From: Alphaproteobacteria bacterium | GTDB lineage: Bacteria > Pseudomonadota > Alphaproteobacteria > SPJN01 | Reading direction: 5' to 3' | Assembly: GCA_049609145.1 (NCBI GenBank) | Contig: JBMYYF010000007.1 | Span: 9,823-73,822, forward strand | Length of the DNA: 64,000 nucleotides | Shown: in pieces, positions 2,335 through 59,562 of the stretch | How positions within the stretch are numbered: position 1 is the first letter of the stretch | How the letters are laid out: every line of letters starts with the position of its first letter | Notes under the pieces: generated by a model | Databases searched by the model: none | The model's input: only the letters and a program-made list of their open reading frames with translations | Told to the model about the DNA's origin: nothing | Program-made: the position numbers and the translations under genes

Positions 2335-2775
2335 ATGTCGTCCCCAAATTGTCCCCCAAGCCATGGCAGAGCTTTTACGCATATCGCGTTGCATATCAAG
2401 GCGTTGAAGCCTTCTATCGCATTTTATCGAGATTTGTGTGGGCTGGTGGTGGTGCATGAACGCACTGATAACGGCACAGGCGTGGCATGGATGGCAGATA
2501 AAGGCCACGAGGATCGCTTTGTGATTGTGTTGATAGAAGGCGGCGATCATCCAGCGCAGGAGGAGGATGATTTCAGCCATATCGGCATTGCCGTTGAAAG
2601 CCGGGCAGAGGTGGATGCCATCGCCGCTCATGGGCGCGATGCAGGCTGTCTGGCGTGGGAGCCAACCGATCTACCTTATCCCGTGGGTTATTTTTGTGGC
2701 TTGCGCGACCCCGATGGCAAAATTGTTGAGTTTTCCTACGGTCAGCCCCTTGGCCCCGGTGCGCCAAAGCATTAA
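2335..2775 (+). CDS. VOC family protein (glyoxalase/bleomycin-resistance/extradiol-dioxygenase fold)
   Basis: 146-aa product with 'FTHIALHIKALKPSIAFYRDLCGL...HIGIAVESRAEVDAI...DPDGKIVEF', a typical beta-alpha-beta-beta-beta VOC module pattern with His/Glu metal ligands. Confidence 0.7.
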   Translation: MSSPNCPPSHGRAFTHIALHIKALKPSIAFYRDLCGLVVVHERTDNGTGVAWMADKGHEDRFVIVLIEGGDHPAQEEDDFSHIGIAVESRAEVDAIAAHGRDAGCLAWEPTDLPYPVGYFCGLRDPDGKIVEFSYGQPLGPGAPKH

Positions 2776-2806
2776 CCTTTCCCCAAATTGGGAAAGGGGC
2801 TTCTCC

Positions 2807-5095
2807 ATGAAACGCGTGTTTTTGATTTTGGTGCTGTTGATCGGCGCCGGGGTGATTTTTCATTTTATGGGCACAAACGGGCTGGTGGGTGATCCCGGTG
2901 ATGCCGGCACAATAGAAGGGGCCGCCCTGCCGGCTGGGGTCACAACCGCGAAGGTTGAAACCCAGCAAAGCGCCATCGCGGCCATGGGCAAAAACCCGGA
3001 AAGCCAAATCCTGTTTGGCGATCTGCATGTTCACACAACATTCTCTGCTGATGCGTTCATGTTCTCGCTGCCCGTTGCCAGCGGGGTGGGGGCGCATCCG
3101 GTCGCAGATGCGTGTGATTTTGCACGTTATTGTTCCCAGCTTGATTTCTGGTCGATTAACGACCATGCCGAATATCTCACCTCCAGCCGCTGGGGCCAAA
3201 CGGTAGATACGATCCGTCAGTGCAATGCGGTGGCAGGGGATCAATCCAACCCTGACATGGTCAGCTATCTGGGTTGGGAATGGACACAGGTTGGCTTGGA
3301 TCGCCCCAGCCATTACGGCCACAAAAATGTCATTCTGGCAGATTTGGCAGATGATCGAATTCCAGATCGCCCCATCGCTTCAGCCGTTGGTATTGCGGGC
3401 ACCCGCGTGTCGCCTGCCATCGGTATGGCGGGTTACTGGTTTTCCTACGATAGCAGCTTTTTGGATTTTGCGGCCTATTTGCATGAAACCGCCAAGGAAG
3501 ATGGCTGCCCGCAGGGCTTGAATGTGCGGGATCTGCCGCAAGGCTGTATCGATGCAACGCCAACGCCGGATGTTCTTTATCGCAAATTGCGCGAATGGGG
3601 CCATCGTTCCATTGTTATCCCGCATGGCACCACATGGGGGCTGTACACGCCCCAAGGGTCAAGCTGGGACAAGCAATTGGCGGGCGACATGCACGACCCC
3701 AATATCCAAACCTTGATCGAAGTGTTTTCCGGTCATGGTAACTCAGAAGATTATCGCCCATGGCGCGAATATGAAGTGGCGGAAGATGGCACGCATATTT
3801 GCCCGGAACCATCGGAGGGCTATTTGCCTCTGTGCTGGCAGGCAGGCGAAATTACGGAAAAACGCTGCAATGATATTGGCACGGAAAGCCCTGAAGCCTG
3901 CGCCCAACACGCCGCCAATGCGCGCAAATTTGGCGCGAATGTCGATGGGTCCAATCCATGGCGTGTACTCAAAGGCACGGAGCTGACAGATTGGCTGGAT
4001 GCGGGCCAATGCGCCGATTGCTTCCAGCCCGCCTTCAACTATGTGCCCACAAGTTCCGTGCAGTACATTCTGGCACTCACCAATTTTGACGAACCGGGCG
4101 AGCCCAAGCGTTTTCGGTTTGGCATGATGGGGTCGTCTGATATTCACACCGCGAAGCCCGGCACGGGCTACAAGGAATATTGGCGCACAGAAATGACAGA
4201 GGCCGTGGGCGCAGATAAAGATGCGCCGTTTTGGGCCACCGCATCTGTGTTCCCAACAGATGAAGCCCGTAGGAATTATGTCCCGGTAGAGGTGGCGTCT
4301 GGCACGCAAGGCGGGCTGACATCTGTCGTCAATCAAGCGTCGGTGGGGCAATTGGATGGCACGGGGTCATCCCTTTATACAGGCGGCTTGATTGCCGTTC
4401 ACGCCGATGGGCGCGATCGCGATTCGATCTGGCAAGGAATGCAACAAAAGAACGTCTATTCCACCTCCGGCCCGCGCATGTTGCTGTGGTTTGATGCGGT
4501 GCACGAAGATGGCACGCGCGATCCAATGGGCACCCAGATTGTGTCAGACAGCTCCCCCGTTTTTGAGGTAAAAGCCCTTGGCTCTTTTGAACAAAAGCCC
4601 GGCTGCCCCGATCACGTGACCGATGGTTTAACCGGCCAGCGGATTGAGGCACTGTGCGGGGGCGAATGTTACAACCCCTCAGATGTCCGTCGGCCCATCT
4701 CGCGGATCGAGATTGTGCGGATCAGGCCGCAAGCCACACCGGGCGAAAGCATGGATCAATTGATTGATGATCCATGGAAAGTGTTTGAGTGCCCGGCAGA
4801 TGGCACAGGCTGTTCTGCCACCTTCACGGATGAGGCGTTTGCCGGGTCCGGGCGGGATGCGGTCTACTACGCCAAGGCGTTCGAGGTACCTTCCATGGCA
4901 GTGAACGGCAAGCAATTGCGCTGCACCTATGATGAGGAAGGCAATTGCATCGCGACCAATCCCTGCTATGGCTCCAATATCCGCACACCGGAAGATGATG
5001 ATTGCTTGGGCGAAGTGGAAGAACGCGCTTGGTCTTCTCCCATCTTTGTCGATCACAAGGCGGGCGTCATGGCTACTGCAACGCTGGCGGATTAG
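2807..5095 (+). CDS. DUF3604 family protein with N-terminal membrane anchor/signal
   Basis: Start chosen at ATG 2807 (GGAAAGGGG SD upstream; MKRVFLILVLLIGAGVIF hydrophobic N-terminus). Contains 'GDLHVHTTFSADAF...DFWSINDHAEY' PHP-like metal-binding motifs characteristic of DUF3604. The long ORF-track version starting at 2567 overlaps the VOC gene and is probably not the real start. Confidence 0.75.
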   Translation: MKRVFLILVLLIGAGVIFHFMGTNGLVGDPGDAGTIEGAALPAGVTTAKVETQQSAIAAMGKNPESQILFGDLHVHTTFSADAFMFSLPVASGVGAHPVADACDFARYCSQLDFWSINDHAEYLTSSRWGQTVDTIRQCNAVAGDQSNPDMVSYLGWEWTQVGLDRPSHYGHKNVILADLADDRIPDRPIASAVGIAGTRVSPAIGMAGYWFSYDSSFLDFAAYLHETAKEDGCPQGLNVRDLPQGCIDATPTPDVLYRKLREWGHRSIVIPHGTTWGLYTPQGSSWDKQLAGDMHDPNIQTLIEVFSGHGNSEDYRPWREYEVAEDGTHICPEPSEGYLPLCWQAGEITEKRCNDIGTESPEACAQHAANARKFGANVDGSNPWRVLKGTELTDWLDAGQCADCFQPAFNYVPTSSVQYILALTNFDEPGEPKRFRFGMMGSSDIHTAKPGTGYKEYWRTEMTEAVGADKDAPFWATASVFPTDEARRNYVPVEVASGTQGGLTSVVNQASVGQLDGTGSSLYTGGLIAVHADGRDRDSIWQGMQQKNVYSTSGPRMLLWFDAVHEDGTRDPMGTQIVSDSSPVFEVKALGSFEQKPGCPDHVTDGLTGQRIEALCGGECYNPSDVRRPISRIEIVRIRPQATPGESMDQLIDDPWKVFECPADGTGCSATFTDEAFAGSGRDAVYYAKAFEVPSMAVNGKQLRCTYDEEGNCIATNPCYGSNIRTPEDDDCLGEVEERAWSSPIFVDHKAGVMATATLAD

Positions 5096-14235: not shown

Positions 14236-14622
14236 CTACTGCCCCAAGCCAATGGACACTACGCGATTGGTCTTCGGATCTACCAATACAACAAAATGAG
14301 CCGCACCTCCTATGGCGCCGGCCGCGCTGTTTTCTGCAGCAGAGATGTGGCTCAAAACAAATTGCAGATGGTCAGAGTTGCGCAGCCAATAACTTACTTT
14401 GAATTCATGATCTTCCCAGCCGATACTTTCATGCACTTGGCGCACAATCTCGCATTGGGCGGTGTAGTGATGATTGGCAAATTCCTCGCGCACTTCATTA
14501 ATGCGGGCTTGTTTCTCCGCCTCAGTAGTCGGATAGCCTTGCGCGAAGGCAATTTGCACACCGAAGATTGCAACCAGTATTGTCAAAGCGAAATGATGTA
14601 TTGCCGACATATTGCCTCTCAT
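14236..14622 (-). CDS. small secreted hypothetical protein (~125 aa)
   Basis: Minus-strand ORF has a signal peptide (ILVAIFGVQIAFA-QG) and a protein-like composition. The overlapping plus-strand ORF (14224-14643) is compositionally implausible. The region is visibly lower in GC than its flanks. Confidence 0.45.
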   Translation of the reverse strand: MRGNMSAIHHFALTILVAIFGVQIAFAQGYPTTEAEKQARINEVREEFANHHYTAQCEIVRQVHESIGWEDHEFKVSYWLRNSDHLQFVLSHISAAENSAAGAIGGAAHFVVLVDPKTNRVVSIGLGQ

Positions 14623-17336: not shown

Positions 17337-17421
17337 GGCGGAAAACTTGCGTTATTTTCAGGTAAAGTGCAATTTCAGCGCGAAAACCCACATAATTATG
17401 ACGTTTTGTTCACGTTTTAAC

Positions 17422-17449
17422 TTGACAAACTGACAAGAACAATATAGCA
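17422..17449 (+). promoter_or_regulatory. candidate sigma70-like promoter in the AT-rich leader of the 17.5-22.4 kb operon (TTGACA ... TATAGC) with a TGACAA direct repeat
   Basis: Perfect -35 hexamer TTGACA at 17422-17427. Best -10-like hexamer is TATAGC at 17443-17448, giving a suboptimal 15-nt spacer. TGACAA occurs twice, 9 nt apart. Confidence 0.3.
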
Positions 17450-17500
17450 ACATACAAGCACACCAAAACCCGCCCGCTTCACCCTTGCGTGGAGCCGACG

Positions 17501-17899
17501 ATGAACGACAGAATTGACCTTTGGCAGGGCCGGGATATGGCCCTCTCTTTTTCCTTGAAAGACAGCAGTGGCAATCCGGTTGATTTGACCGATGGCGGGC
17601 TTGTCTTTCGCGCCGCTGATGGCCTTGGAAATGCCCCGGTTTTTGCGCTTTCATCGGTCGATCCCTCAGAAATTTTGATGGATGCGCCTGCCGGTTCTGC
17701 GGTGGTGAATGTACCTGCCTTGGCCACGCGTGATCTGATTATTCCGGCCTCTCAATCGGGGCCGTTCGGGCCGGGGCATGGTCCGGCCCATTTGGCGCTG
17801 GATTGGGAGTTTTTGGTACATTGGGCCGATGGCCGGATGGAGCAATTGGCGCAGGATGTGCTGTTCGTCAATGCCACCGTTAATCCGGGCCAAAGCTGA
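17501..17899 (+). CDS. hypothetical protein A of a 5-gene operon (132 aa, no signal peptide)
   Basis: ATG 17501 preceded by GGAG SD at 17491-17494. Stop overlaps the next start (TGATG). No recognisable motifs. Confidence 0.55.
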   Translation: MNDRIDLWQGRDMALSFSLKDSSGNPVDLTDGGLVFRAADGLGNAPVFALSSVDPSEILMDAPAGSAVVNVPALATRDLIIPASQSGPFGPGHGPAHLALDWEFLVHWADGRMEQLAQDVLFVNATVNPGQS

Positions 17900-18453
17900 T
17901 GGGCGATACAGCCAGTATTGCGGTTACGGTGACACGGCCCCGCATTTTGGTAGCAGCTCGTTCCAGCCATCATGCGTTGCGCCTTGAAACGCCCCGACAA
18001 GTTGTGGTGGATGCAAACCGTTTAATGACTATCACGGGCGCGGAAACCAAGTGCCATATTACGCTGGGCGGCACGCAAGGCCCGGCGGGTGTTGCCATAC
18101 GTGTCCGGCTGCTGGAATTGGGCGAAGATATAGAAGCTCACCGGGCAGTGTATGTTGGAAGCGATGGCAAGGCTTACGCGGCTGATGCACAGGCGGGTGA
18201 AGGTATTCGCGCGCTTGTTGGCATTTTGATGCGTGCCGGTTTGGCCGGTGATGTGCGCGCAGTTCAGCAGCGTGACGAGATCGAAATTCCATCAGCGACT
18301 TTTCTACCCGATCGGTGTGTTGTGGTGGCCGAAAACGGCGGTTTGACACAGGGCAAACCGGCGGGTCTGCAATGGCATGCGCCGATAGGGCGGGCGTTGT
18401 CTCCAACACGAATAGAGATTGATATCGATACTCCCATCGAAAGGATTTTGTGA
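17899..18453 (+). CDS. hypothetical protein B of the 5-gene operon (184 aa)
   Basis: Translationally coupled on both sides. Gly/Ala-rich, no TM segment or signal peptide. Confidence 0.55.
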   Translation: MGDTASIAVTVTRPRILVAARSSHHALRLETPRQVVVDANRLMTITGAETKCHITLGGTQGPAGVAIRVRLLELGEDIEAHRAVYVGSDGKAYAADAQAGEGIRALVGILMRAGLAGDVRAVQQRDEIEIPSATFLPDRCVVVAENGGLTQGKPAGLQWHAPIGRALSPTRIEIDIDTPIERIL

Positions 18454-18800
18454 TGAGTGAACAAGAAGCGATTGATGCGTTGCGCCCTTTCGCGGAACTG
18501 GCGCGGGTTTTTCCTGAAAGTCAATCTGGCGAGACATGGCTATATAACGCCAATGCGGTGGACCCGGTAACAGGCGCGCGTCAAAGCGAGATTGTGAACG
18601 TGACCTTGCAACAGGCGCGTGATGCGCGTGAGGTGATCCGCCAATATGAGGTGGAGCAGGGCCTTGACCCGACCCTACCGACCTTGCCGGATATCCCCCC
18701 CGTGCCAGAGCCCCAATCTTTAGATGAGGCGCTGGAGGACAAGGTATCGGATGTGGTGAGCGGATTGACAGGAGGCCGCCTTGGGAACCGCAGCCGATAA
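18453..18800 (+). CDS. hypothetical protein C of the 5-gene operon (~115 aa, acidic, Pro-rich C-terminal half)
   Basis: ATG 18453 overlaps the B stop (TGATG); the ORF track's 18450 start is a GTG. Its 3' end carries the AGGAGG SD of the next gene. Confidence 0.5.
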   Translation: MSEQEAIDALRPFAELARVFPESQSGETWLYNANAVDPVTGARQSEIVNVTLQQARDAREVIRQYEVEQGLDPTLPTLPDIPPVPEPQSLDEALEDKVSDVVSGLTGGRLGNRSR

Positions 18801-21800
18801 TCTGGACGTTCTGCAATCGTGGCGAGGGACCGCGCCGCCTGCGCTTAATCAGGCCGTAACCCCTGTTGTGTCTAACCGCACGACGGATGTGGTGGCGGAG
18901 TGCCAGTTTGCCAACACCATTGCGCTGGCAGCGCCCCCTTCAGCCATTGCCGAGATCAGCCCCGATGGGGTGGCGTGGCAGGAAGTTGACCGATCAAGTT
19001 TTGATGTAGGCACTGTAACGCTAAGTCTGTTGGGCTTGCGCATTTTGGATGTATTGGGCACCGGCAATCGCAAGCTGGTTTTTAAGGTGCCTGCCGGTTG
19101 GCAATATCGGTTCATTGTGGCGCAGCCTTTGGGCGCTGGCACCTTGACGATACAGCGGGTTCAAGAATGGACCTTTGAAGTCAGTTCACATCGCACCACG
19201 CTTTGGGAATTTATCGCGGGTGCCCCGGCTTATCCTGATAATTCGCATGTTCAACCTTGTGACGCGCAGTGCTTTTCACCCAACCTGTTTATCGACCAGT
19301 ACAAGCGCGACACCAGCGAAGGCTACCGGGCTTTTGATGGGGCGGTTGAGCCGCCCAAGGGCTATGTGCGTGCGCCTGAAAATGGCGGCGGCAGCGGCAC
19401 CGGTGGCGGGCCATTTAGCGTCGACTTTGATGTGGTCAACGAAGGGGCCGATGATGGGGTGAACGGCTGGACCGCAGAGAATGGCAGCACATGGGGCGTT
19501 ACCAGCGCAGCGGGCGGCAATAACGCGCCCCTGCAACGCAACCAGCCCGTTTTCTTCCAAACCTCAACCGTGGCGAATGCGGTGTTGGGGCAAGAAATAT
19601 CGCTGGCCCCTTATGCGGCGACAATTGCTGCCAATGGGGGGACACTTGATGTAAGTGCGTGGCACGCGCCCTCGGCCACAAGCCCTGCCGTTTTCGGTGA
19701 TGACGGTCAGATCGGCATTCGCTTTTTGGATAGCGGCGGCGGCACGATCTCGGAAAGCTATGGCGCGTCCTCCGCCCATGGAAATAATGGTAACTGGATA
19801 CAAATTACCCACAGCGCCGCGGTGCCTGCAAATGCCGCTGATTTTGTGGTGCTGCTAAAAGACCTAAGCCCCGCCGGGCAAGTGGCAAACAGCTATTTCG
19901 ATGACATTCGGGTCATTGGCAATTTCGACAATACGGGCTTGGTGGGATCAACCAGCCAAATTTATAGCTTCTCACCCACAAACGGCGATGCGGAAACCGG
20001 CGATATTACGGGCTGGACCAGCTCGGACGGTTTGCACACGGTTTTAGCGGGCGGCAATGGGGGCAGCGATTGGGCCTTTCATTGGAACGGTAGCGCCCCA
20101 CTTAATCCGGTGCCGCAAGACTTATCACAAGCGGTGGATGTGAGCGCGCGCGCGACCGAGATTGATCAAGGCTATGCCTCGGCCACTTGTGGGGTTTACG
20201 CGAAACTGCCAGCGGATTTGCAGGAATTTGCGGAACTGTATTTTGAGTTTCGCGATGGCGCGGGCAACTACATCGGGCGTACCGATGGGGTGGCGATCAA
20301 TCAGGCGCTTATCGGCGTTGAAACATGGACGCTAGTAACGGAACAAGCGCCGGTGCCTGTTGGCGCGCGCCAGATCGTGCCGCATTTGGTTTGGGCAGGC
20401 GTCGCTGGTGCCTCGCAAGTGTTTTTCGATGATGTGCAAGATGTGGATATTATCGTGCCCGATGCTGCCGGGGGTGGTGCCCCGGTCGATAATTTGCACG
20501 TCAAAGGCCGCTTTGATGAAAACGATCCCGCGAGCTTTACGCTCAATTGGCGCAACACGGATTACACCTTTGGCGATCCTGAATTGACCAATCTTGGCGG
20601 CGGCGAATGGGAGTTCAAAGGCGATGTGGGGGCAGAAACGGCCCTCAACGATCCAGAAGAATTGACGATCAGCCAAACCGGGCAGCCCGACGATGTGGTG
20701 GAAATTTGCATTGATCGCAGCCCCCCAACAGCCGCGCTTGTCTTTACTGGCATGACGGAAGGTTTAAGCGGTGGTGCCCCGATGCTTAGGGGCGAATATG
20801 CCAAATTGTTGCCGACCTATAGCGATGACAATACGGGCATTGAAAGCGCGACAATCGGCTATCAACACCCCGCCTATTGGACGGGGGAACCGACAAGCGC
20901 CCCGGCCAGCGGGGTGGCAACGGCCTATTTCAGATCAAGCGCCAATGCCCCAACAAGCGGCGACACCGATATGATGTTGACGGTAAAGGACAAGGCCGGG
21001 AACATTGCAACGGATCAAGTCACCGCGTTCTTTGGGGCCTTGCCTGCCGTGCCCGCCGTGTCGCTCTCTGACTTAAGCACCAATATTCGCCCGGCGCATT
21101 TGAACCAAACCGAATATGCTGAAACCGCTTATGATGACAACACAATTGGCGCGCGTGTGAATATCGACCCGCCGGTCATTCGCTGCCGCAATCAGAACAC
21201 AACCGCAGGCGATGACACGCGCAGCCAGCTAATCAGCGGCGGCCTGTCAATCAACACCTCAACCATTAACAATATTCACGGGGTGGGCTTTGCCACGCAT
21301 TCCACCAATGTGCCCAGCCAATCATCAAAGTTGGGCGTTGGCTTCAAAGGCCGGGTGCTGGATCAACACTATCGCCCAACCGATAGCGCGGAAGCGGGCG
21401 ATTATGCGTTCAATGCCAGTCGTGATGATGACTTTGGACAGGATCAAACCGTGGGCATTGGCGCGCCGCCCTTCACCGGCAAAGGGGTGGAGCCTTTCAC
21501 CGATGAGAGCGCAGGCGACAGTCTCACAGATGCGCGCGTGTTTGACGGGGCCGTGGAATGGCTGGTCGATGGCGCGGTGCTGGAAGTGACCGTGGCGCTT
21601 GCCGGCAATACGGGCCAGCTCTACCAGCCGCGCCTGTTCGACAAATCAGGCAATGAGATTTTGCACGCTACCTGGGGTGATGACATCACGGTCACGCTGC
21701 ATGACGGCACCCAGTTTGTGGCCCCGACCGCCGGGGATGATTTCGGGCCGGATGCGAGCTTTGATATCGCGGCTTTGAATGGGGCTGCAAGTGTGACGGC

Positions 21801-21867
21801 GCGCGTCACGGTAAGCGATCACACCGTGCCGGATCTGGGCGTGTTCATTTTGAACTACAAGGCGTAA
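18781..21867 (+). CDS. large multidomain protein (1028 aa): N-terminal domain, Gly-rich linker, two tandem jelly-roll/CBM-like repeats, Ig-like domain, C-terminal domain; no signal peptide
   Basis: TTG start at 18781 preceded by a perfect AGGAGG (18770-18775, 5-nt spacer). No in-frame ATG for >600 codons. Internal repeats share 'GDITGWT/VNGWT ... G..W ... YFDDIRV/FFDDVQDV'. 'MMLTVKDKAGNIATDQVTAFF' resembles bacterial Ig-like (Big) domain strands. Confidence 0.65.
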   Translation: MGTAADNLDVLQSWRGTAPPALNQAVTPVVSNRTTDVVAECQFANTIALAAPPSAIAEISPDGVAWQEVDRSSFDVGTVTLSLLGLRILDVLGTGNRKLVFKVPAGWQYRFIVAQPLGAGTLTIQRVQEWTFEVSSHRTTLWEFIAGAPAYPDNSHVQPCDAQCFSPNLFIDQYKRDTSEGYRAFDGAVEPPKGYVRAPENGGGSGTGGGPFSVDFDVVNEGADDGVNGWTAENGSTWGVTSAAGGNNAPLQRNQPVFFQTSTVANAVLGQEISLAPYAATIAANGGTLDVSAWHAPSATSPAVFGDDGQIGIRFLDSGGGTISESYGASSAHGNNGNWIQITHSAAVPANAADFVVLLKDLSPAGQVANSYFDDIRVIGNFDNTGLVGSTSQIYSFSPTNGDAETGDITGWTSSDGLHTVLAGGNGGSDWAFHWNGSAPLNPVPQDLSQAVDVSARATEIDQGYASATCGVYAKLPADLQEFAELYFEFRDGAGNYIGRTDGVAINQALIGVETWTLVTEQAPVPVGARQIVPHLVWAGVAGASQVFFDDVQDVDIIVPDAAGGGAPVDNLHVKGRFDENDPASFTLNWRNTDYTFGDPELTNLGGGEWEFKGDVGAETALNDPEELTISQTGQPDDVVEICIDRSPPTAALVFTGMTEGLSGGAPMLRGEYAKLLPTYSDDNTGIESATIGYQHPAYWTGEPTSAPASGVATAYFRSSANAPTSGDTDMMLTVKDKAGNIATDQVTAFFGALPAVPAVSLSDLSTNIRPAHLNQTEYAETAYDDNTIGARVNIDPPVIRCRNQNTTAGDDTRSQLISGGLSINTSTINNIHGVGFATHSTNVPSQSSKLGVGFKGRVLDQHYRPTDSAEAGDYAFNASRDDDFGQDQTVGIGAPPFTGKGVEPFTDESAGDSLTDARVFDGAVEWLVDGAVLEVTVALAGNTGQLYQPRLFDKSGNEILHATWGDDITVTLHDGTQFVAPTAGDDFGPDASFDIAALNGAASVTARVTVSDHTVPDLGVFILNYKA

Positions 21868-21873
21868 ACGACG

Positions 21874-22404
21874 ATGGCTCTGACAAATCAGGAAGTGGTG
21901 CAAGCTGCCCCGTCTATCATCGATACTGATGGTACCTTCACGCAATTTTCCAAAGCCGCGATCATCGACTTCGCGGATCGGTTGATCCATGTGGAGTTAG
22001 GACGGTTTTTCAATAACGTGATCATTCGGCTGTATGAAAACAATGACCTCCAAAATGGCGATGGTTTTGTCGCCATCAACCTAGATATTGCCCAAAGCGC
22101 TGTTGATGTTGAGGGTGAAGGCGGTGCTATCTATGAGCTGATGTTGTCGGATTTCAGCAACACATCAACGGGTTTATATGTGTTTTCGCCTGCTATGCCG
22201 CTGCCACCCCACCTTGCGGTGCGATTGACATTGGCAGGATCATTTCAGAACCCCGCAACAGCAAACAACCCGGCAGCAACGATAAACTTTAGTTTGGTTT
22301 ATTATGCCAGTACCAATGCCCACGACGCCGGACATACACACACACTGGGCGCGCGGGTGCTGACCTTGGCGGAGGAAGGCTGGGTGAGGGAGGTTGATAT
22401 CTGA
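21874..22404 (+). CDS. hypothetical protein E of the 5-gene operon (176 aa)
   Basis: ATG 7 nt after the D stop; no signal peptide. Last gene before a 65-nt gap to the NUDIX gene. Confidence 0.55.
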   Translation: MALTNQEVVQAAPSIIDTDGTFTQFSKAAIIDFADRLIHVELGRFFNNVIIRLYENNDLQNGDGFVAINLDIAQSAVDVEGEGGAIYELMLSDFSNTSTGLYVFSPAMPLPPHLAVRLTLAGSFQNPATANNPAATINFSLVYYASTNAHDAGHTHTLGARVLTLAEEGWVREVDI

Positions 22405-22469
22405 CGCTTGACTTTCCCTTGCCTGCTTGAAACCGTGGGGCATCTGATATTTCAAATGTAAGGTGCCCC

Positions 22470-27544: not shown

Positions 27545-30500
27545 TTAAAAGGCGCTGTCGGCGGCAACTTCATCTTGCGCGTCGGCGGCCAGCCCTTTGT
27601 TGGTCACGCCGAAATCATCCAAGATGGTGAAGAAGGCGGGCACTACAAACAGCACCAAAATTGTTGCGGCAGTTAAACCGAAGGCGATGGATGTCACCAG
27701 CGGGATAATGATCTGCGCCTGCAAGCTGGTTTCCGTCAAAATTGGTAACAATCCTGCCACTGTGGTGGCAGATGTTAGCAGCACAGCGCGGAAACGATCA
27801 CGGCTGGCCTGCGCGGCGGCTTCGGCCACAGGCAATCCCTCTGCGCGGCGAATGCGGATGAACGTTACCAGCAGGATCGAGTTGTTCACCACCACACCCG
27901 CCAAACTGGTAAAGCCGACAAAGCTTGGCATGGTCAGGTTCATGCCCAATACCAAATGGCCGATCATGACCCCGATAAAGCTGAACGGGATGATAAACAT
28001 CACCACAATCGGTTCCAGATAGTTGCGGAACTGGAAGGCCAGTAGAAGGTAAACGGCAAACAGGCCCAGTAGAAAACCCTGCCCGATAGAGGCACCGGTT
28101 TCGGCGGCTTCTTCTGACGCCCCCGCAGATTGGATGGAAAGGCCGGGATAGCGCTCCAACAAGGCAGGCACCATTTTTTCGAAGCTGTCGCCTGTGACTT
28201 CTGCGGCATTTGTCTTGCCGGAAACATAGGCGGTAACGGTAATGGAGCGATTGCCATCAATCCGGCGGATCATGGCGTCCCCCCTGCGCTCCGTCACATT
28301 GGCCACGGCACTAAGCGGTATTTGCGCGCCCGTTGGTGCATTGATCAAAAAGCCATCAAGGTTGCCAAAGCCGCTGCGATCATCATCGGACAAACGCACA
28401 TCGATTTCATAGCTTTCATTGCCCGATTGAAATTGCAAAGCGGTAGAGCCGTAATAGGCCCCGCGCAATTGGCGCGCGATATCTGATGCGCTAAGGCCAA
28501 GACTGGTGGCCCCTTCCTTCAAGGTTAGGGCATATTCCGGCTTGCCGGGACGAATATTATCCCCCACATCTACCACGCCATCATAGCCGCGCAACCATTC
28601 CTGCAACTCGTCAGAGGCGGCGTTCAAAATGGCAGTTGAATTGGCGCCTGTGGCGGTTAGGCGAAACCCGATATCCGCGCCACCGGGGCCTGGTTCCATG
28701 CTGCGGAAGGTGAGGGATTCAATGCCGGGCATATCCGGCAGTTCTTCGCGGAAAGCAGCCTCAAACGCTTTCATGGTAACGGTGCGTTCTTCTGCGGAAA
28801 CCAAATCGACAATAATGCCCGACGCATGGTTGCCGCGTTCAGACGCTGTGCGCAGGCCACCGCGCAGGCGCGCAGCATTCACAATAACATTCTCACCATT
28901 GGGTTGCGGCGAGAAGCGATCATTGGCGCGCCAAAGGGCCGCCTCGATTTGATCCATCACATATTCTGTTTCTTCAAACGGTGTGCCGCGCGGCATAATG
29001 AGATTGATCTCTGAGGTGTCGCCATCAAGCTGCGGGAACGGGGTAAACTTTACAATGCCCATCGGGATCAAGCCGATGCAGAAAATAAACAGCGCCAGCA
29101 CCGATCCCAAAAAGCCATAGCGATGGCGAATGGCAAACCGAACCATTGGCAGCAAGACATTTTCACGGAAACGGTCAATCGCATCTTCAAACTTCTGCTT
29201 GAATTCGCCCCGTTCGTTTTCGTCGTGATGTTCAAGTGAGGTTTTAAGGTGGTGGGGCAAAATCAGGAAGGCTTCTGTCAGTGAAACCGTCAGCGTCATA
29301 ATGAGGATGATTGGCACCAGCTTCAACACTTCACCGAATTCGCCCGTTAGCAAGGTGAGGGGGGCGAAGATGCACATGGTGGTCAGGTAAGACATGGCAA
29401 CACCGGGCAGCACCTGTTTGGTGCCATCAATCGCGGCATCTACAGGGGTTTTGCCTTTGGCGTGGTGGGTGGCGATATTTTCAGCAATGACAATCGCATC
29501 ATCCATCAGCAGGCCAATCCCGATAAGCAGGCCGATGACAGAGATAAGGTCGAAGCTGTAGCCAAACCAGTTCATGAAAAAGAAGGTGCCGGCAAAGCTG
29601 ACCGGCAACCCCATGGCTACCCACACTGAATAGCGCAGTGAGAAAAACAGCCACATGGTGAGGAATACCAGCAACAAGCCCTGCATCCCGTTTTTGGTGA
29701 GCATGGTTAGACGATCGTCTATCAGCGATGCGGCGTTAAAGGTCGTGCGTAGCTGCATACCGTCTGGTAACTGCGCGCGTTCTTGATCCAAAAACCCATA
29801 GACACTTTCGAGGACAGTAAGTGAATCATCCTCACGGGACTTGTTGACGAACAGGATAGCTCCGCGTTCGCCGTTGATTGTCATATTTGTGTTGGATGAC
29901 GAAAAACCATCGGAAATTTCGGCAATATCCCCTAAACGCACCTCGCCACCCATCGTATCGGATTTCAGTATCACGTCTTCCAAGGGACGCGCGCCATGGC
30001 GTTCATCGGAGAAGCGCAGCAGAATTTCCTTGTCGCGGGTTTCCATCAAACCGGCGGGAATTTCAATATTTTGCGCTTCAATCGCGCGGGACACCTGATC
30101 GGCTGAAAGGCCCAGCGCCTGCATGGCGCGGCGGTCTATCGCTACGCGAATTTGCCGTTCCGAAAAGCCTGCCATATCCACCTTGGCGATGGTTGGCATT
30201 AGCGTCATACGCTCGCGCAAATCTTCCACATAGGCTTTCAGACCTGTGCTTTCGGGAATGCCGGTCACCAAAATGGCAACCACATGGGTGGCGCGGTCTG
30301 ATTGATAAATACGGGGACGTTCAACGATTTCGGGAAAATCTGTGATGCTATCGACTGCGGATTGCACATCATTGGTGAAGCGATCAATATCGGTGCGGGG
30401 CTGGGTGCGCACGATAATGAAGGCGCTGCCTTCCTGTGCTTCGCAAATGGTTTGTTTGCGATCCATGACGCTGGCGACGGCCTGTTCCACCCGCAGGCAA

Positions 30501-30682
30501 ACGGCAGTTTCCACCTCCTCGGCTGCAGCGCCGGGATAGGGAATGCCCATATATACACTATCAATGGCAACATCAGGGAAGGTGGCGCGGCCAATTTCCG
30601 GCAAGGCCGTAAGCCCCAAGGCCAGCCACATCAACATCATGATGTTGGCGGCTGTGGGATGACGAGCAAAAAAGCCGATCAC
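27545..30682 (-). CDS. efflux RND transporter permease subunit (AcrB/HAE family, 1045 aa)
   Basis: 12-TM RND architecture with two large periplasmic loops; typical size and composition of AcrB-like proteins. Confidence 0.85.
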   Translation of the reverse strand: MIGFFARHPTAANIMMLMWLALGLTALPEIGRATFPDVAIDSVYMGIPYPGAAAEEVETAVCLRVEQAVASVMDRKQTICEAQEGSAFIIVRTQPRTDIDRFTNDVQSAVDSITDFPEIVERPRIYQSDRATHVVAILVTGIPESTGLKAYVEDLRERMTLMPTIAKVDMAGFSERQIRVAIDRRAMQALGLSADQVSRAIEAQNIEIPAGLMETRDKEILLRFSDERHGARPLEDVILKSDTMGGEVRLGDIAEISDGFSSSNTNMTINGERGAILFVNKSREDDSLTVLESVYGFLDQERAQLPDGMQLRTTFNAASLIDDRLTMLTKNGMQGLLLVFLTMWLFFSLRYSVWVAMGLPVSFAGTFFFMNWFGYSFDLISVIGLLIGIGLLMDDAIVIAENIATHHAKGKTPVDAAIDGTKQVLPGVAMSYLTTMCIFAPLTLLTGEFGEVLKLVPIILIMTLTVSLTEAFLILPHHLKTSLEHHDENERGEFKQKFEDAIDRFRENVLLPMVRFAIRHRYGFLGSVLALFIFCIGLIPMGIVKFTPFPQLDGDTSEINLIMPRGTPFEETEYVMDQIEAALWRANDRFSPQPNGENVIVNAARLRGGLRTASERGNHASGIIVDLVSAEERTVTMKAFEAAFREELPDMPGIESLTFRSMEPGPGGADIGFRLTATGANSTAILNAASDELQEWLRGYDGVVDVGDNIRPGKPEYALTLKEGATSLGLSASDIARQLRGAYYGSTALQFQSGNESYEIDVRLSDDDRSGFGNLDGFLINAPTGAQIPLSAVANVTERRGDAMIRRIDGNRSITVTAYVSGKTNAAEVTGDSFEKMVPALLERYPGLSIQSAGASEEAAETGASIGQGFLLGLFAVYLLLAFQFRNYLEPIVVMFIIPFSFIGVMIGHLVLGMNLTMPSFVGFTSLAGVVVNNSILLVTFIRIRRAEGLPVAEAAAQASRDRFRAVLLTSATTVAGLLPILTETSLQAQIIIPLVTSIAFGLTAATILVLFVVPAFFTILDDFGVTNKGLAADAQDEVAADSAF

Positions 30683-58629: not shown

Positions 58630-59562
58630 ATGTCAGACGGTGATTCAAATAAAGAAACCGGGCCCAATGTCCGCAAGGCGGGCCAAGCGTTCAATTTTGC
58701 GGCGCAGATGAACCCCAAGGGGCGCAAAGCTGCAATTGCGGGCAAGCCGCATGTTATTGTGTTGGGCAATGAAAAAGGCGGTTCCGGCAAATCAACTACG
58801 GCGATGCACATTACCGCGGCTTTGATGAAACTTGGCTTTTCGGTTGGGCTGCTGGATTTGGATGGGCGGCAGCGCTCACTTAGTCGTTATGTCGAAAATC
58901 GGGGTGAATATGCGCAGCGCCATGGGTTGAAGCTGCCAATGCCCCGGCACCATGTGTTGATGCGCTCCGAGCTTGATTCCATGGAAGACCGCGCCGCGGC
59001 AGAGCTGGCGGCGGTGCAAGCCGCCTTGGATGATTTTGCCGACTGCCAATTCATAGTGATTGATTGCCCCGGCTCCGACACGCATTTGTCACGCCTTGGG
59101 CATTCACTGGCCGATACGTTGGTGACGCCAATCAATGACAGCTTTGTAGACTTTGATTTGATTGGCAAGGTCGATCCTGAAACTTATGAAGTGAAAAGCC
59201 CCAGCCTATACGCAGAACTGGTATGGGACAGTCGCAAGCAACGTATGATGCGCGATCGCACAACGGTGGATTGGGTTGTGATGCGCAATCGCTTGCAACA
59301 GCTAGACGCCAAAAACAAACGCCGGGTGGGCGAGGCGCTGACCGTACTGGCAGACCGTATCGGCTTTCGGGTCGCGCCGGGCTTTGGCGAACGGGTGATA
59401 TACCGCGAGCTGTTCCTGAACGGCTTGACCCTGATTGATCTGGTGGGGGCCGATACGGGTGTGAACCTGACCATGTCCCACGTTGCGGCACGCAATGAAG
59501 TGCGGGGGCTGATCGAATCCCTCAACCTGCCGGGGCTTGAGGGACGACTGGCAGAGCTTTAG
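58630..59562 (+). CDS. mipZ: division-plane positioning ATPase MipZ (ParA/MinD-like)
   Basis: Deviant Walker A 'GNEKGGSGKSTTAMHI', size ~310 aa, and the conserved alphaproteobacterial adjacency to panC. Confidence 0.8.
   Translation: MSDGDSNKETGPNVRKAGQAFNFAAQMNPKGRKAAIAGKPHVIVLGNEKGGSGKSTTAMHITAALMKLGFSVGLLDLDGRQRSLSRYVENRGEYAQRHGLKLPMPRHHVLMRSELDSMEDRAAAELAAVQAALDDFADCQFIVIDCPGSDTHLSRLGHSLADTLVTPINDSFVDFDLIGKVDPETYEVKSPSLYAELVWDSRKQRMMRDRTTVDWVVMRNRLQQLDAKNKRRVGEALTVLADRIGFRVAPGFGERVIYRELFLNGLTLIDLVGADTGVNLTMSHVAARNEVRGLIESLNLPGLEGRLAEL

What the first reader, a model, noticed from the sequence alone, without database searches (positions are those of the whole stretch)
17337..22469. Compact five-gene operon of unknown function with a 1028-aa multidomain protein: an orphan phage-tail-fibre / GTA-accessory-like module or a novel system
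Genes run from 17501 to 22404 on the plus strand with 1-nt, 1-nt, 20-nt and 6-nt junctions, behind a 150-nt AT-rich leader in a GC-rich genome. None of the five products has a signal peptide, a TM segment or any motif I can assign to a housekeeping family. The big protein (18781-21867) uses a TTG start with a perfect AGGAGG 5 nt upstream. It combines jelly-roll/CBM-like repeats, an Ig-like domain and Gly-rich linkers. That is the domain grammar of phage receptor-binding and tail-fibre proteins and of GTA head-spike/tail-fibre loci in alphaproteobacteria, which are known to sit away from the main structural cluster. No integrase, terminase, capsid or tRNA lies anywhere in the 64 kb. Flanking genes (pxpABC, NUDIX, nadK) are core, and GC looks native. 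So this is neither a prophage nor a recent island.
Basis: partly seen in the sequence, partly recalled or inferred. Interest (0 to 1): 0.8.

Follow-up and report, generated by a model that had tools for sequence, protein, structure and literature searches.

The report
Orphan phage-derived fibre operon in chromosome
Five tightly packed genes in an uncultured marine-type alphaproteobacterium are a complete phage fibre (attachment-protein) module that has sat alone in the chromosome, without any other phage gene, long enough to be inherited by different species and kept intact by selection, so the cell seems to use a borrowed piece of virus, though which particle it decorates is unknown.

Summary
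Five co-directional ORFs (17501-22404) have 1/1/20-nt overlaps and a 6-nt gap, sit behind a 164-nt, 44.5% GC leader, and g4 starts AGGAGG-5 nt-TTG. There is no signal peptide or TM segment, no Pfam hit, and only housekeeping genes elsewhere in the 64 kb.

The block is a phage-derived fibre operon.
- g2 carries the 'bead' domain of the neck-fibre protein gp82 of cyanophage A-1(L) (profile E 9e-10).
- g1 falls in phrog_1084.
- The g4 core and the g5 domain form a gene pair adjacent in five of five uncultured phage contigs.
- One phage contig (L005) has the whole order g1-like, g2-like, small ORF, g4-like, g5-domain tailspike.
- g4 residues 561-1028 model (pLDDT 85) as four beta-sandwich/CBM-like domains with no enzyme fold.

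The block occupies the same pxpA|NUDIX slot in three genomes of two deeply diverged lineages (dS saturated). Its composition is native. dN/dS is 0.11-0.25 for g1, g2, g4 and g5.

So it is not a prophage or a recent island, and it is under selection. The GTA link is untested and has no positive support: no similarity to RcGTA spike or fibre proteins, no DUF2793, no CtrA box. I rate it a new variant of a known kind, of moderate interest.

The parts
17337..17500 (.). Intergenic leader shared with the divergent pxpA gene. It presumably holds the promoter of the operon.
   Evidence: 164 nt at 44.5% GC. Several blocks are conserved with L001, including GCAATTTC, GTTTTGTTCAC, TAGCAA and GCACAC. No sigma-70 consensus hit, no CtrA box with up to 1 mismatch, no Rfam family.
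17501..17899 (+). g1: a 132-aa small acidic protein of the phrog_1084 family. Inferred to be the adaptor that fixes the fibre to a virion.
   Evidence: phrog_1084 at E 1.5e-4. The gene at the same position in phage contig L005 hits the same PHROG at 1.1e-10 and matches the gene upstream of the g2 homolog in Acidovorax phage AP1 (5.6e-16). The family profile hits PDB 26dk_M 'Structural protein' at 1.6e-5 and the T5 collar protein p132 only at 0.76. It is the most conserved gene of the block: 76% aa identity to L001, dN/dS 0.11-0.14.
17899..18453 (+). g2: a 184-aa 'bead' protein. It has a short N-terminal part, a GGTQGPAG collagen-like motif and a C-terminal globular bead domain (about residues 69-184).
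   Evidence: phrog_4368 at 2.8e-12. tblastn finds the Acidovorax phage AP1 'structural protein' in its distal tail/fibre module (8e-5). The family profile hits PDB 8keg_a, neck fibre gp82 of cyanophage A-1(L), residues 129-241, at E 8.8e-10. Pairwise phmmer gives the same relation. dN/dS 0.25-0.29.
18453..18800 (+). g3: a 115-aa acidic, fast-evolving small protein with no homolog outside the three genomes. Guessed to be an assembly factor or linker.
   Evidence: The ORF and its length are conserved in L001 and L092, but identity is only 31-38% and dN/dS is 0.56-0.75. Nothing in Pfam, PHROGs, NCBIfam or PADLOC. A 112-aa unrelated ORF holds the same position in L005.
18781..21867 (+). g4: a 1028-aa multidomain fibre arm. 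Its parts are an N-domain (residues 1-200; nt 18781-19380), a Gly linker (201-211), jelly roll 1 (216-385; nt 19426-19935), jelly roll 2 (395-560; nt 19963-20460) and four beta-sandwich domains (569-1028; nt 20485-21864).
21874..22404 (+). g5: a 176-aa protein equal to the N-terminal (anchor) domain of the tailspike/fibre proteins that follow g4-like genes in phages.
   Evidence: phmmer matches the N-terminus of the L005 861-aa protein at 1.5e-21, and that protein's C-terminal part hits tail spike and tail fibre PHROGs. It also matches the L008 182-aa protein (3.9e-6) and the N-terminus of the L007 473-aa protein. The same domain starts the downstream genes in L094 and L095. No PDB or GenBank-phage hit. 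dN/dS 0.16-0.19.

Best explanation
The five genes are a phage-derived fibre operon that became fixed in the chromosome of an uncultured alphaproteobacterial lineage and is kept by selection, while every other gene of the ancestral phage is gone from the neighbourhood.

Shown:
- g1, g2, g4 and g5 are homologous to phage fibre-module genes and follow the same gene order.
- The position between pxpA and the NUDIX gene is conserved in three genomes of two deeply diverged lineages.
- Composition is native.
- g1, g2, g4 and g5 are under purifying selection.
- No product has a secretion signal.
- The modelled C-terminal half of g4 consists of beta-sandwich domains with no enzyme fold; the two jelly rolls are assigned from weak sequence signals.

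Inferred mechanism. The proteins assemble in the cytoplasm into a fibre.
- g2 trimerises through its short collagen-like stretch and its gp82C-type bead.
- g1, a phrog_1084 small protein, serves as the adaptor to a virion surface.
- g4 is the long arm. Its two CBM4/9-like jelly rolls are the most variable part and show domain gain or loss, so they probably bind a surface glycan.
- g5, the anchor domain that begins the protein encoded after every g4-like gene in phages, docks on or caps g4.
- g3 may help assembly.

By analogy with A-1(L), whose neck fibre is encoded apart from the other structural genes and self-assembles before docking, the finished fibre would be mounted on a phage-like particle encoded elsewhere in the genome and leave the cell by lysis. 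That particle could be a gene transfer agent, a tailocin or a resident prophage. It was not identified.
For: Homology and collinearity with phage modules:
- g2 matches the AP1 structural protein in the distal tail module, just before a tail-fibre assembly gene and the lysis genes.
- The g2 family profile matches A-1(L) gp82 C-domain at 8.8e-10.
- In L005 the order is a 129-aa phrog_1084 protein, a 168-aa g2-like protein (1e-12), a 171-aa gp81-like bead, a 112-aa ORF, an 823-aa g4-like protein (1.8e-111) and an 861-aa g5-domain tailspike (1.5e-21).
- The g4-like and g5-like genes are adjacent in L005, L007, L008, L094 and L095. Those contigs carry portal, capsid, tape measure, Prophage_tail or PolB genes.

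Orphan state:
- Only housekeeping genes in the 64 kb, no tRNA and no att-like repeats.

Age and selection:
- The synteny is the same in L001 and L092.
- Flanks are 63-94% aa identical with dS above 1 between the window and L001.
- dN/dS between L001 and L092 is 0.11 (g1), 0.25 (g2), 0.18 (g4) and 0.16 (g5), against 0.03-0.19 for flanks.
- GC, GC3 and tetranucleotide usage are native.

Folds:
- AF2 pLDDT 84.8; Ig/PKD/CBM sandwiches only.

Precedent:
- A-1(L) neck-fibre genes lie far from the other structural genes, and the fibre self-assembles on its own (PMC10966104).
Against: - No particle genes were found, and the rest of the genome could not be examined, so the 'mounted on a particle encoded elsewhere' step rests on nothing direct.
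- The block lacks the gp81-like polymerising bead that A-1(L), AP1 and L005 have.
- g2 lacks the neck-binding gp82N domain.
- g3 is barely constrained.
- The dN/dS values for g1, g3 and g5 rest on very few substitutions.
- The roles given to g1 (adaptor) and g5 (anchor or cap) come from gene position and weak similarity only; T5 p132 scores E 0.76.
- The g4 N-terminal 200 residues could not be modelled, so a catalytic or other function there is not excluded.
- No expression data exist.
Confidence: 0.6

Rival explanations
1. This is specifically an accessory locus of an RcGTA-type gene transfer agent, with a head spike or tail fibre encoded away from the head-tail cluster.
For: RcGTA does keep its head-spike (rcc01079/01080) and tail-fibre (rcc00171) genes at separate loci. 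Those loci evolve fast, have phage homologs and conserve synteny only among close relatives (PMC5026251). The block here behaves the same way: it is orphan, it evolves faster than its flanks, and it is selected. The host is an alphaproteobacterium with MipZ.
Against: g1, g2, g4, g5 and their family profiles hit no RcGTA chain in the PDB. No product has DUF2793. The leader has no CtrA box. The GenBank phages matched by g2 (Acidovorax AP1, Pseudomonas KPP25/phiR18, Stenotrophomonas and Xanthomonas phages) and cyanophage A-1(L) are not RcGTA-like; the uncultured contigs carrying g4/g5 relatives were not compared with RcGTA. Whether the genome has a GTA cluster is unknown, because the genome is not in the searchable collections.
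Confidence: 0.25
2. It is an inert leftover of a decayed prophage, a cryptic tail-fibre remnant with no present function.
For: Cryptic prophage remnants that retain fibre genes are common (established knowledge, for example in E. coli K-12). g5 is only the anchor domain of what is a long tailspike in L005. The gp81-like bead is missing. g3 is nearly neutral.
Against: All five ORFs are intact in three genomes, although synonymous sites are saturated between the two lineages. dN/dS is 0.11-0.25 for g1, g2, g4 and g5. Translational coupling and the strong RBS are kept. A short g5-only protein also occurs in bona fide phage contigs L008 and L094, so its shortness is not decay.
Confidence: 0.08
3. 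The cell uses a co-opted glycan-binding adhesin or fibre on its own surface or in its matrix, with no virus-like particle involved.
For: The g4 C-terminal half resembles rods of Ig-like domains in giant adhesins such as SiiE and MpIBP. Its jelly rolls resemble CBM/MAM domains found in PEP-CTERM and T9SS surface proteins.
Against: There is no signal peptide, TM segment, sortase, PEP-CTERM or T9SS tag, and no adjacent secretion genes. Four of the five genes have virion-module homologs in the same order.
Confidence: 0.07
4. It acts against or alongside infecting phages. Host-made fibres might be built into progeny of related phages as decoys or retargeting parts, or the locus might serve as a recombination reservoir for phage fibre genes.
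For: Fibre parts of this family appear modular and self-assembling: A-1(L) fibres assemble alone, and the g5-type N-domain is shared by several fibre proteins within one phage. Related phages exist in the environment.
Against: No PADLOC hit. There is no precedent I can cite. Purifying selection on the whole operon is not specifically predicted by this idea. No phage close enough to exchange DNA was found: the closest homolog, P0007, shares about 33% aa identity with g4, and IMG/VR scans found nothing.
Confidence: 0.07
5. It is an ordinary polysaccharide-degrading or metabolic operon functionally linked to pxpABC or the NUDIX gene.
For: CBM-like domains are typical of glycoside hydrolases. The position next to pxpABC is conserved.
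Against: No catalytic family appears in Pfam or NCBIfam. The g4 561-1028 model has no enzyme fold. No export signal. The homologs sit in phage structural modules. In other alphaproteobacteria the moaA-nadK neighbourhood lacks the block.
Confidence: 0.03

Closest known systems
Neck-fibre operon gp82-gp81-gp80 of Anabaena myophage A-1(L) (PDB 8KEG; PMC10966104)
   Same: The g2 C-terminal domain is homologous to the gp82 C-terminal 'bead' (profile E 8.8e-10). Both are small separate operons encoded away from the other structural genes. Both end in a component carrying carbohydrate-binding modules. The phage relatives AP1 and L005 also carry a close gp81 homolog (5e-42 and 2e-39).
   Different: Here the operon is in a bacterial chromosome with no phage around it. 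There is no gp81-like polymerising bead and no gp82N neck-binding domain. g4 is not homologous to gp80 and is five times larger. g1, g3 and g5 have no A-1(L) counterpart.
Fibre modules of Acidovorax phage AP1 and of uncultured phage contigs (L005, L007, L008, L094, L095)
   Same: The gene order is the same: a phrog_1084 small protein, a gp82C-like bead, a small ORF, a g4-like protein and a g5-domain protein. The g4 C-terminal core and the g5 N-domain form an adjacent pair in five of five contigs.
   Different: Those modules are embedded among capsid, portal, tape-measure, tail and lysis genes, whereas this one is alone. The window g4 has one or two extra jelly-roll domains. In L005, L007 and L095 the g5 domain is extended into a long tailspike or fibre.
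RcGTA accessory loci: head spike rcc01079/rcc01080 and tail fibre rcc00171 (PMC5026251, PMC7296036)
   Same: The concept is the same: phage-derived attachment genes at a chromosomal locus separate from any head-tail cluster, evolving faster than core genes but kept by selection, with synteny conserved only among close relatives.
   Different: There is no detectable sequence similarity to Rcc01079, Rcc01080 or Rcc00171-type proteins and no DUF2793. A GTA cluster has not been shown in this organism. There are five genes instead of one or two.
Phage T5 collar protein p132 with L-shaped fibre pb1 (PDB 7QG9)
   Same: g1 is similar in size to p132 (132 versus 140 aa). As I recall from the published T5 tail structures, p132 is a small Ig-like protein that forms the ring on which side fibres are anchored. 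That is the role I infer for g1.
   Different: The similarity is not significant (E 0.76), so this is an analogy only.

Membership tests
RcGTA head spike (Rcc01079 base / Rcc01080 fibre) | Sequence homology to Rcc01079 (jelly-roll penton base) or Rcc01080 | tested here: not met
   PDB sequence and profile searches with g1, g2, g4, g5 and the g1, g2 and g5 family profiles at E up to 10 returned no RcGTA chain. The head-spike base was modelled in the RcGTA structure paper, so I assume its chain is in the PDB copy searched.
RcGTA head spike / GTA accessory locus | Co-occurrence with an RcGTA-like head-tail cluster and GafA/CtrA in the same genome | not testable with these tools
   Only 64 kb of the source and 22 kb of the relative could be read. 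The genomes are not in the searchable genome collection.
RcGTA head spike / GTA accessory locus | CtrA/GafA-dependent promoter | tested here: inconclusive
   There is no TTAA-N7-TTAA with up to 1 mismatch in 17337-17500. However, RcGTA control runs through GafA, for which I have no motif, and no expression data exist.
RcGTA tail fibre Rcc00171 family | DUF2793 (PF10983) domain | tested here: not met
   A Pfam scan of all five products at E up to 1 found no DUF2793.
Bead-chain neck fibre (A-1(L) gp82/gp81/gp80) | gp82C-type bead domain | tested here: met
   The g2 family profile hits 8keg_a residues 129-241 at E 8.8e-10. Pairwise phmmer for g2 gives 3e-3 to 3e-4, and up to 7e-12 for the linking homologs.
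Bead-chain neck fibre (A-1(L) gp82/gp81/gp80) | gp81-type polymerising bead protein | tested here: not met
   gp81 matches AP1_8514 and L5_9104 strongly but matches no product of the window block.
Bead-chain neck fibre (A-1(L) gp82/gp81/gp80) | gp82N domain that binds the neck protein | tested here: not met
   All alignments of g2 and its relatives to gp82 start at residue 129-137. The g2 N-terminal part is only about 65 residues.
Bead-chain neck fibre (A-1(L) gp82/gp81/gp80) | Distal component with a carbohydrate-binding module | tested here: inconclusive
   g4 has CBM-like jelly rolls but is not homologous to gp80. Binding was not tested.
Prophage / integrated mobile element | Integrase, att repeats, tRNA target, terminase/capsid/tail genes nearby, foreign composition | tested here: not met
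   No tRNA. Neighbours are housekeeping genes. No flanking repeats beyond chance. Composition is native.
Known anti-phage defence systems (PADLOC) | Match to a defence protein model | tested here: not met
   No hit at E up to 0.1 except a chance-level GajA match (0.079) for g3.
Glycoside hydrolase / polysaccharide lyase operon | Catalytic domain | tested here: inconclusive
   None is found by Pfam or NCBIfam or in the modelled g4 561-1028. The g4 N-domain (1-200), g3 and g5 were not modelled with confidence.

The most novel reading that the evidence does not exclude
An uncultured alphaproteobacterial lineage has domesticated a complete, self-assembling phage fibre operon built from previously undescribed protein families (the g4 core and the g5 anchor domain). 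It uses the fibre to arm a phage-like particle whose other genes lie elsewhere. That would be a gene transfer agent, or another domesticated particle, with a 'multilocus genome' outside the Rhodobacterales and with a bead-type fibre unlike any known GTA fibre. A less likely variant is that the fibre is deployed without any particle, or is loaded onto infecting phages.
Probability: 0.3. Interest if true: 0.7.

Novelty: new variant of a known kind. Interest (0 to 1): 0.5.

Why it matters
Stand-alone, selected phage attachment genes are the hallmark of domesticated particles such as gene transfer agents. The dispersed loci of those particles are hard to find because they evolve fast and carry no annotation.

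This block gives three things:
- A clean example of a complete fibre operon kept alone in a chromosome across species.
- Two unannotated protein families (the g4 C-terminal core and the g5 N-terminal anchor domain) that mark a conserved fibre gene pair in uncultured phages.
- A chromosomal relative of the recently described bead-chain fibre of cyanophage A-1(L).

If the partner particle were found, it would extend the 'multilocus GTA genome' idea to a new lineage and a new fibre type. If no particle exists, it would be a case of a phage fibre put to another use by the cell.

Tried and rejected
- AF2 of whole g4 with a 2-sequence alignment gave pLDDT 32 and was useless.
g1, g2, g3, g5 and the g4 N-domain therefore remain unmodelled.
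- IMG/VR scans with the g4 family and the g5 family found nothing. The g2 family alignment was too divergent to scan.
- JGI metagenome scans with g1 and g4 found nothing.
- A scan of the GTDB species genomes with the NUDIX neighbour found nothing.
- The same collection scanned with MoaA returned only relatives at 58-65% identity, from Hyphomicrobiales, Rhodospirillaceae and Sphingomonadales MAGs. None carries the block. Neither the taxonomy nor the presence or absence of the block in sister lineages could be resolved.
- A literature search for the assembly and run accessions found nothing. The PDB entry 26dk could not be traced.
- The last fold search could not use afdb50 because that library is not installed.
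- SOS box: the leader has GTTC-N7-AACT in the window and GTTC-N7-GTCT in L001. This is not a conserved GTTC-N7-GTTC alphaproteobacterial LexA box, so I rejected it (by eye).
- The sigma-70 scan found no promoter in the leader, and the terminator scan found nothing above the shuffle expectation.
- Rfam found nothing.
- A prophage att search found only chance-level repeats.


Full report
**1. The observation**

| Gene | Coordinates | Length |
|---|---|---|
| g1 | 17501-17899 | 132 aa |
| g2 | 17899-18453 | 184 aa |
| g3 | 18453-18800 | 115 aa |
| g4 | 18781-21867 | 1028 aa |
| g5 | 21874-22404 | 176 aa |

- The junctions are 1-nt, 1-nt and 20-nt overlaps and a 6-nt gap.
- g4 begins with TTG, 5 nt after a perfect AGGAGG. 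The start is confirmed by an end-to-end N-terminal alignment with its ATG-started homolog.
- The leader (17337-17500) is 164 nt at 44.5% GC in a 55.5% GC window.
- No product has a hydrophobic segment or a signal-like N-terminus.
- Pfam and NCBIfam give nothing above threshold.
- The window has no tRNA.
- The neighbours I annotated are housekeeping genes: ABC transporter, pxpCBA, NUDIX, nadK, moaA, glpK, aldolase, RND pump, Mla, GlnE, YhdP, TyrRS, AnmK, IscR/IscS, SufBCDS, PanC, MipZ and DacC.
- Block GC, GC3 and tetranucleotide usage match the flanks.
- No att-like repeats flank the block.

**2. Rarity and conservation**

In a 5.8-billion-cluster protein database:
- g4 has one full-length relative, P0001 (826 aa, 53% identity).
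- g1 has two relatives.
- g2 finds only itself.

P0001 lies in assembly GCA_025450675.1, in exactly the same place: pxpA | g1-g5 | NUDIX-nadK-moaA-glpK (L001). A third genome (L092), close to L001, has the same arrangement.

Between the window and L001:
- Flanking proteins are 63-94% identical and synonymous sites are saturated (dS 0.9-1.8).
- g1 is 76% identical, g2 50%, g3 31-38%, g4 about 54% and g5 52%.

Between the close pair L001 and L092:
- dN/dS is 0.11 (g1), 0.25 (g2), 0.56 (g3), 0.18 (g4) and 0.16 (g5).
- The flanks give 0.03-0.19.

The block was therefore present before the two lineages split. It evolves faster than core genes. Except perhaps for g3, it is under purifying selection. 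The values for the short genes rest on few substitutions.

**3. What the genes are**

*g2*
- It hits phrog_4368 (2.8e-12).
- It also hits a 'structural protein' of Acidovorax phage AP1. That gene sits after the large tail proteins and before a tail-fibre assembly gene and the lysis genes.
- A profile of the g2 family hits one solved structure, the neck-fibre protein gp82 of Anabaena phage A-1(L). The match covers the C-terminal domain (residues 129-241) at E 8.8e-10.
- In A-1(L) the fibre is a chain of trimeric beads: gp82C, about 14 gp81 trimers, and a distal gp80 with a carbohydrate-binding module.
- That fibre is encoded in a small operon far from the other structural genes and self-assembles before docking (PMC10966104).
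- AP1 and the uncultured phage contig L005 carry both a gp82C-like and a close gp81-like gene (5e-42 and 2e-39). The window block has only the gp82C-like one.
- g2 also has a short collagen-like GGTQGPAG motif before the bead.

*g1*
- It weakly hits phrog_1084 (1.5e-4).
- The gene at the same position in L005 hits the same PHROG at 1.1e-10. It also matches the gene just upstream of the g2 homolog in AP1 (5.6e-16).
- A family profile hits an unnamed 'Structural protein' in PDB entry 26dk (1.6e-5). It hits the T5 collar protein p132 only at chance level (0.76).

*g4*
- An exhaustive HMMER search gave 203 hits.
- The C-terminal core (about residues 570-1028) occurs in ten proteins at E<1e-30.
- Those I could place are all in phage contigs:
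  - L005;
  - L007 (Prophage_tail, PolB);
  - L008 (portal, protease, capsid, tail tube, chaperone, tape measure);
  - L094 and L095.
- Two of them carry phage tail repeats (PF12789) or tail-fibre PHROGs at their N-termini.
- The two jelly rolls (residues 216-385 and 395-560) are paralogs (26% identity). They match about 190 small CBM_4_9/MAM-like proteins.
- L001 has only one jelly roll.
- AF2 of residues 561-1028 with a 15-sequence alignment gave pLDDT 84.8. The model has four beta-sandwich domains.
- Domain by domain, the jelly rolls and the first sandwich are the most divergent (39-44% identity). The last domains are the most conserved (66-67%).

*g5*
- It is homologous to the N-terminal domain of the protein encoded immediately after the g4-like gene in all five phage contexts.
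- In L005 that protein is an 861-aa tail spike/fibre (phrog_4636 at 1.8e-26).
- In L008 and L094 it is a short protein of 182-193 aa, like g5.

*g3*
- It has no relatives.

*Gene order*

L005 has the order phrog_1084 protein, gp82C-like bead, gp81-like bead, small ORF, g4-like protein, g5-domain spike. Apart from the gp81-like bead, this reproduces the order of the window block.

**4. Interpretation**

The block is a phage fibre operon that has lost its phage. The evidence rules out an intact prophage and a recent island. It makes an inert remnant unlikely, because the ORFs are intact across saturated divergence and dN/dS is well below 1.

The likely product is a self-assembling fibre made in the cytoplasm:
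- g1 is the adaptor.
- g2 is a trimeric bead.
- g4 is a long glycan-binding arm. Its variable jelly rolls, with domain gain or loss, are the probable ligand-binding part.
- g5 is the anchor-domain partner of g4.
- g3 is a possible assembly factor.

These role assignments are inferences from homology, gene order and fold.

The fibre would have to be mounted on a particle encoded elsewhere and released by lysis. Which particle is unknown.

**5. The GTA reading**

RcGTA is the precedent for dispersed, fast-evolving attachment loci (PMC5026251; PMC7296036). Here, however:
- No product resembles Rcc01079 or Rcc01080, or carries the DUF2793 domain of the Rcc00171 family.
- The leader has no CtrA box.
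- The genome could not be searched for a GTA cluster.
  - The lineage is absent from the GTDB species set: the NUDIX scan was empty, and the best MoaA relative is 65% identical.
  - It is also absent from JGI metagenomes.

I give this specific reading about 0.25.

**6. Other rivals**

- A cell-surface adhesin: no export signal.
- An anti-phage decoy or a recombination reservoir: no PADLOC hit and no close phage relative. The closest homolog, P0007, shares about 33% aa identity with g4, and IMG/VR scans found nothing.
- A glycan-degrading operon: no catalytic domain found, though the g4 N-domain is unmodelled.

Each stays below 0.1.

**7. Verdict**

The GTA link is open. The block is a new variant of a known kind, namely a domesticated or orphan phage structural locus. 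It is built partly from unannotated families and is related to the newly described bead-chain fibre. Interest is moderate (0.5). It would rise if a partner particle, or a particle-free function, were shown.

Noticed in passing
L001 18168-21305 versus L092 13993-17148 (RND pump gene; window homolog 27545-30682): Between the two otherwise very close genomes (dS 0.015-0.13 for most genes), the RND transporter gene has dS 1.27 and only 86% aa identity. pxpCBA shows dS 0.16-0.27. This suggests allelic replacement or mosaic recombination on both sides of the fibre block.
   Followed up: partly
window 19426-20460 (g4 residues 216-560): The window g4 has two paralogous CBM-like jelly rolls where L001 and L092 have one (1028 versus 826 aa). 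This is domain gain or loss inside the fibre gene.
   Followed up: yes
L008 5426-12492: In this 39-kb phage contig the g4-like/g5-like pair lies between the major capsid gene and the tail tube, chaperone and tape-measure genes, not at the tail-tip end. The family may therefore sit on the head or neck in some phages.
   Followed up: partly
L094 10001-12832: The g4-like protein of this phage contig itself begins with a g5-like N-terminal domain, and two upstream 236-243 aa proteins share other g4-family domains. The domains are shuffled among several fibre proteins of one phage.
   Followed up: no
window 17390-17399: A perfect 10-nt palindrome, CATAATTATG, lies in the leader between pxpA and g1. 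It is not conserved in L001.
   Followed up: partly
window 22405-22469: The 65-nt spacer between g5 and the NUDIX gene is 85% identical to L001 and starts with a conserved CTTGACTTT. No terminator follows g5. The NUDIX gene may have its own promoter and also receive read-through transcription.
   Followed up: no
window 14236-14622 (minus strand) versus L001 4419-5736: Between the af470-like monooxygenase gene and pxpC, the window has a 128-aa ORF with a hydrophobic N-terminus. L001 instead has a DUF2804 gene and an HTH gene, and L092 has the DUF2804 gene. This is a second variable spot next to pxpABC.
   Followed up: no
window 2567-5095 and 58630-59562: The window encodes an 842-aa DUF3604 protein and a MipZ division ATPase. 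MipZ fits an alphaproteobacterial host.
   Followed up: no
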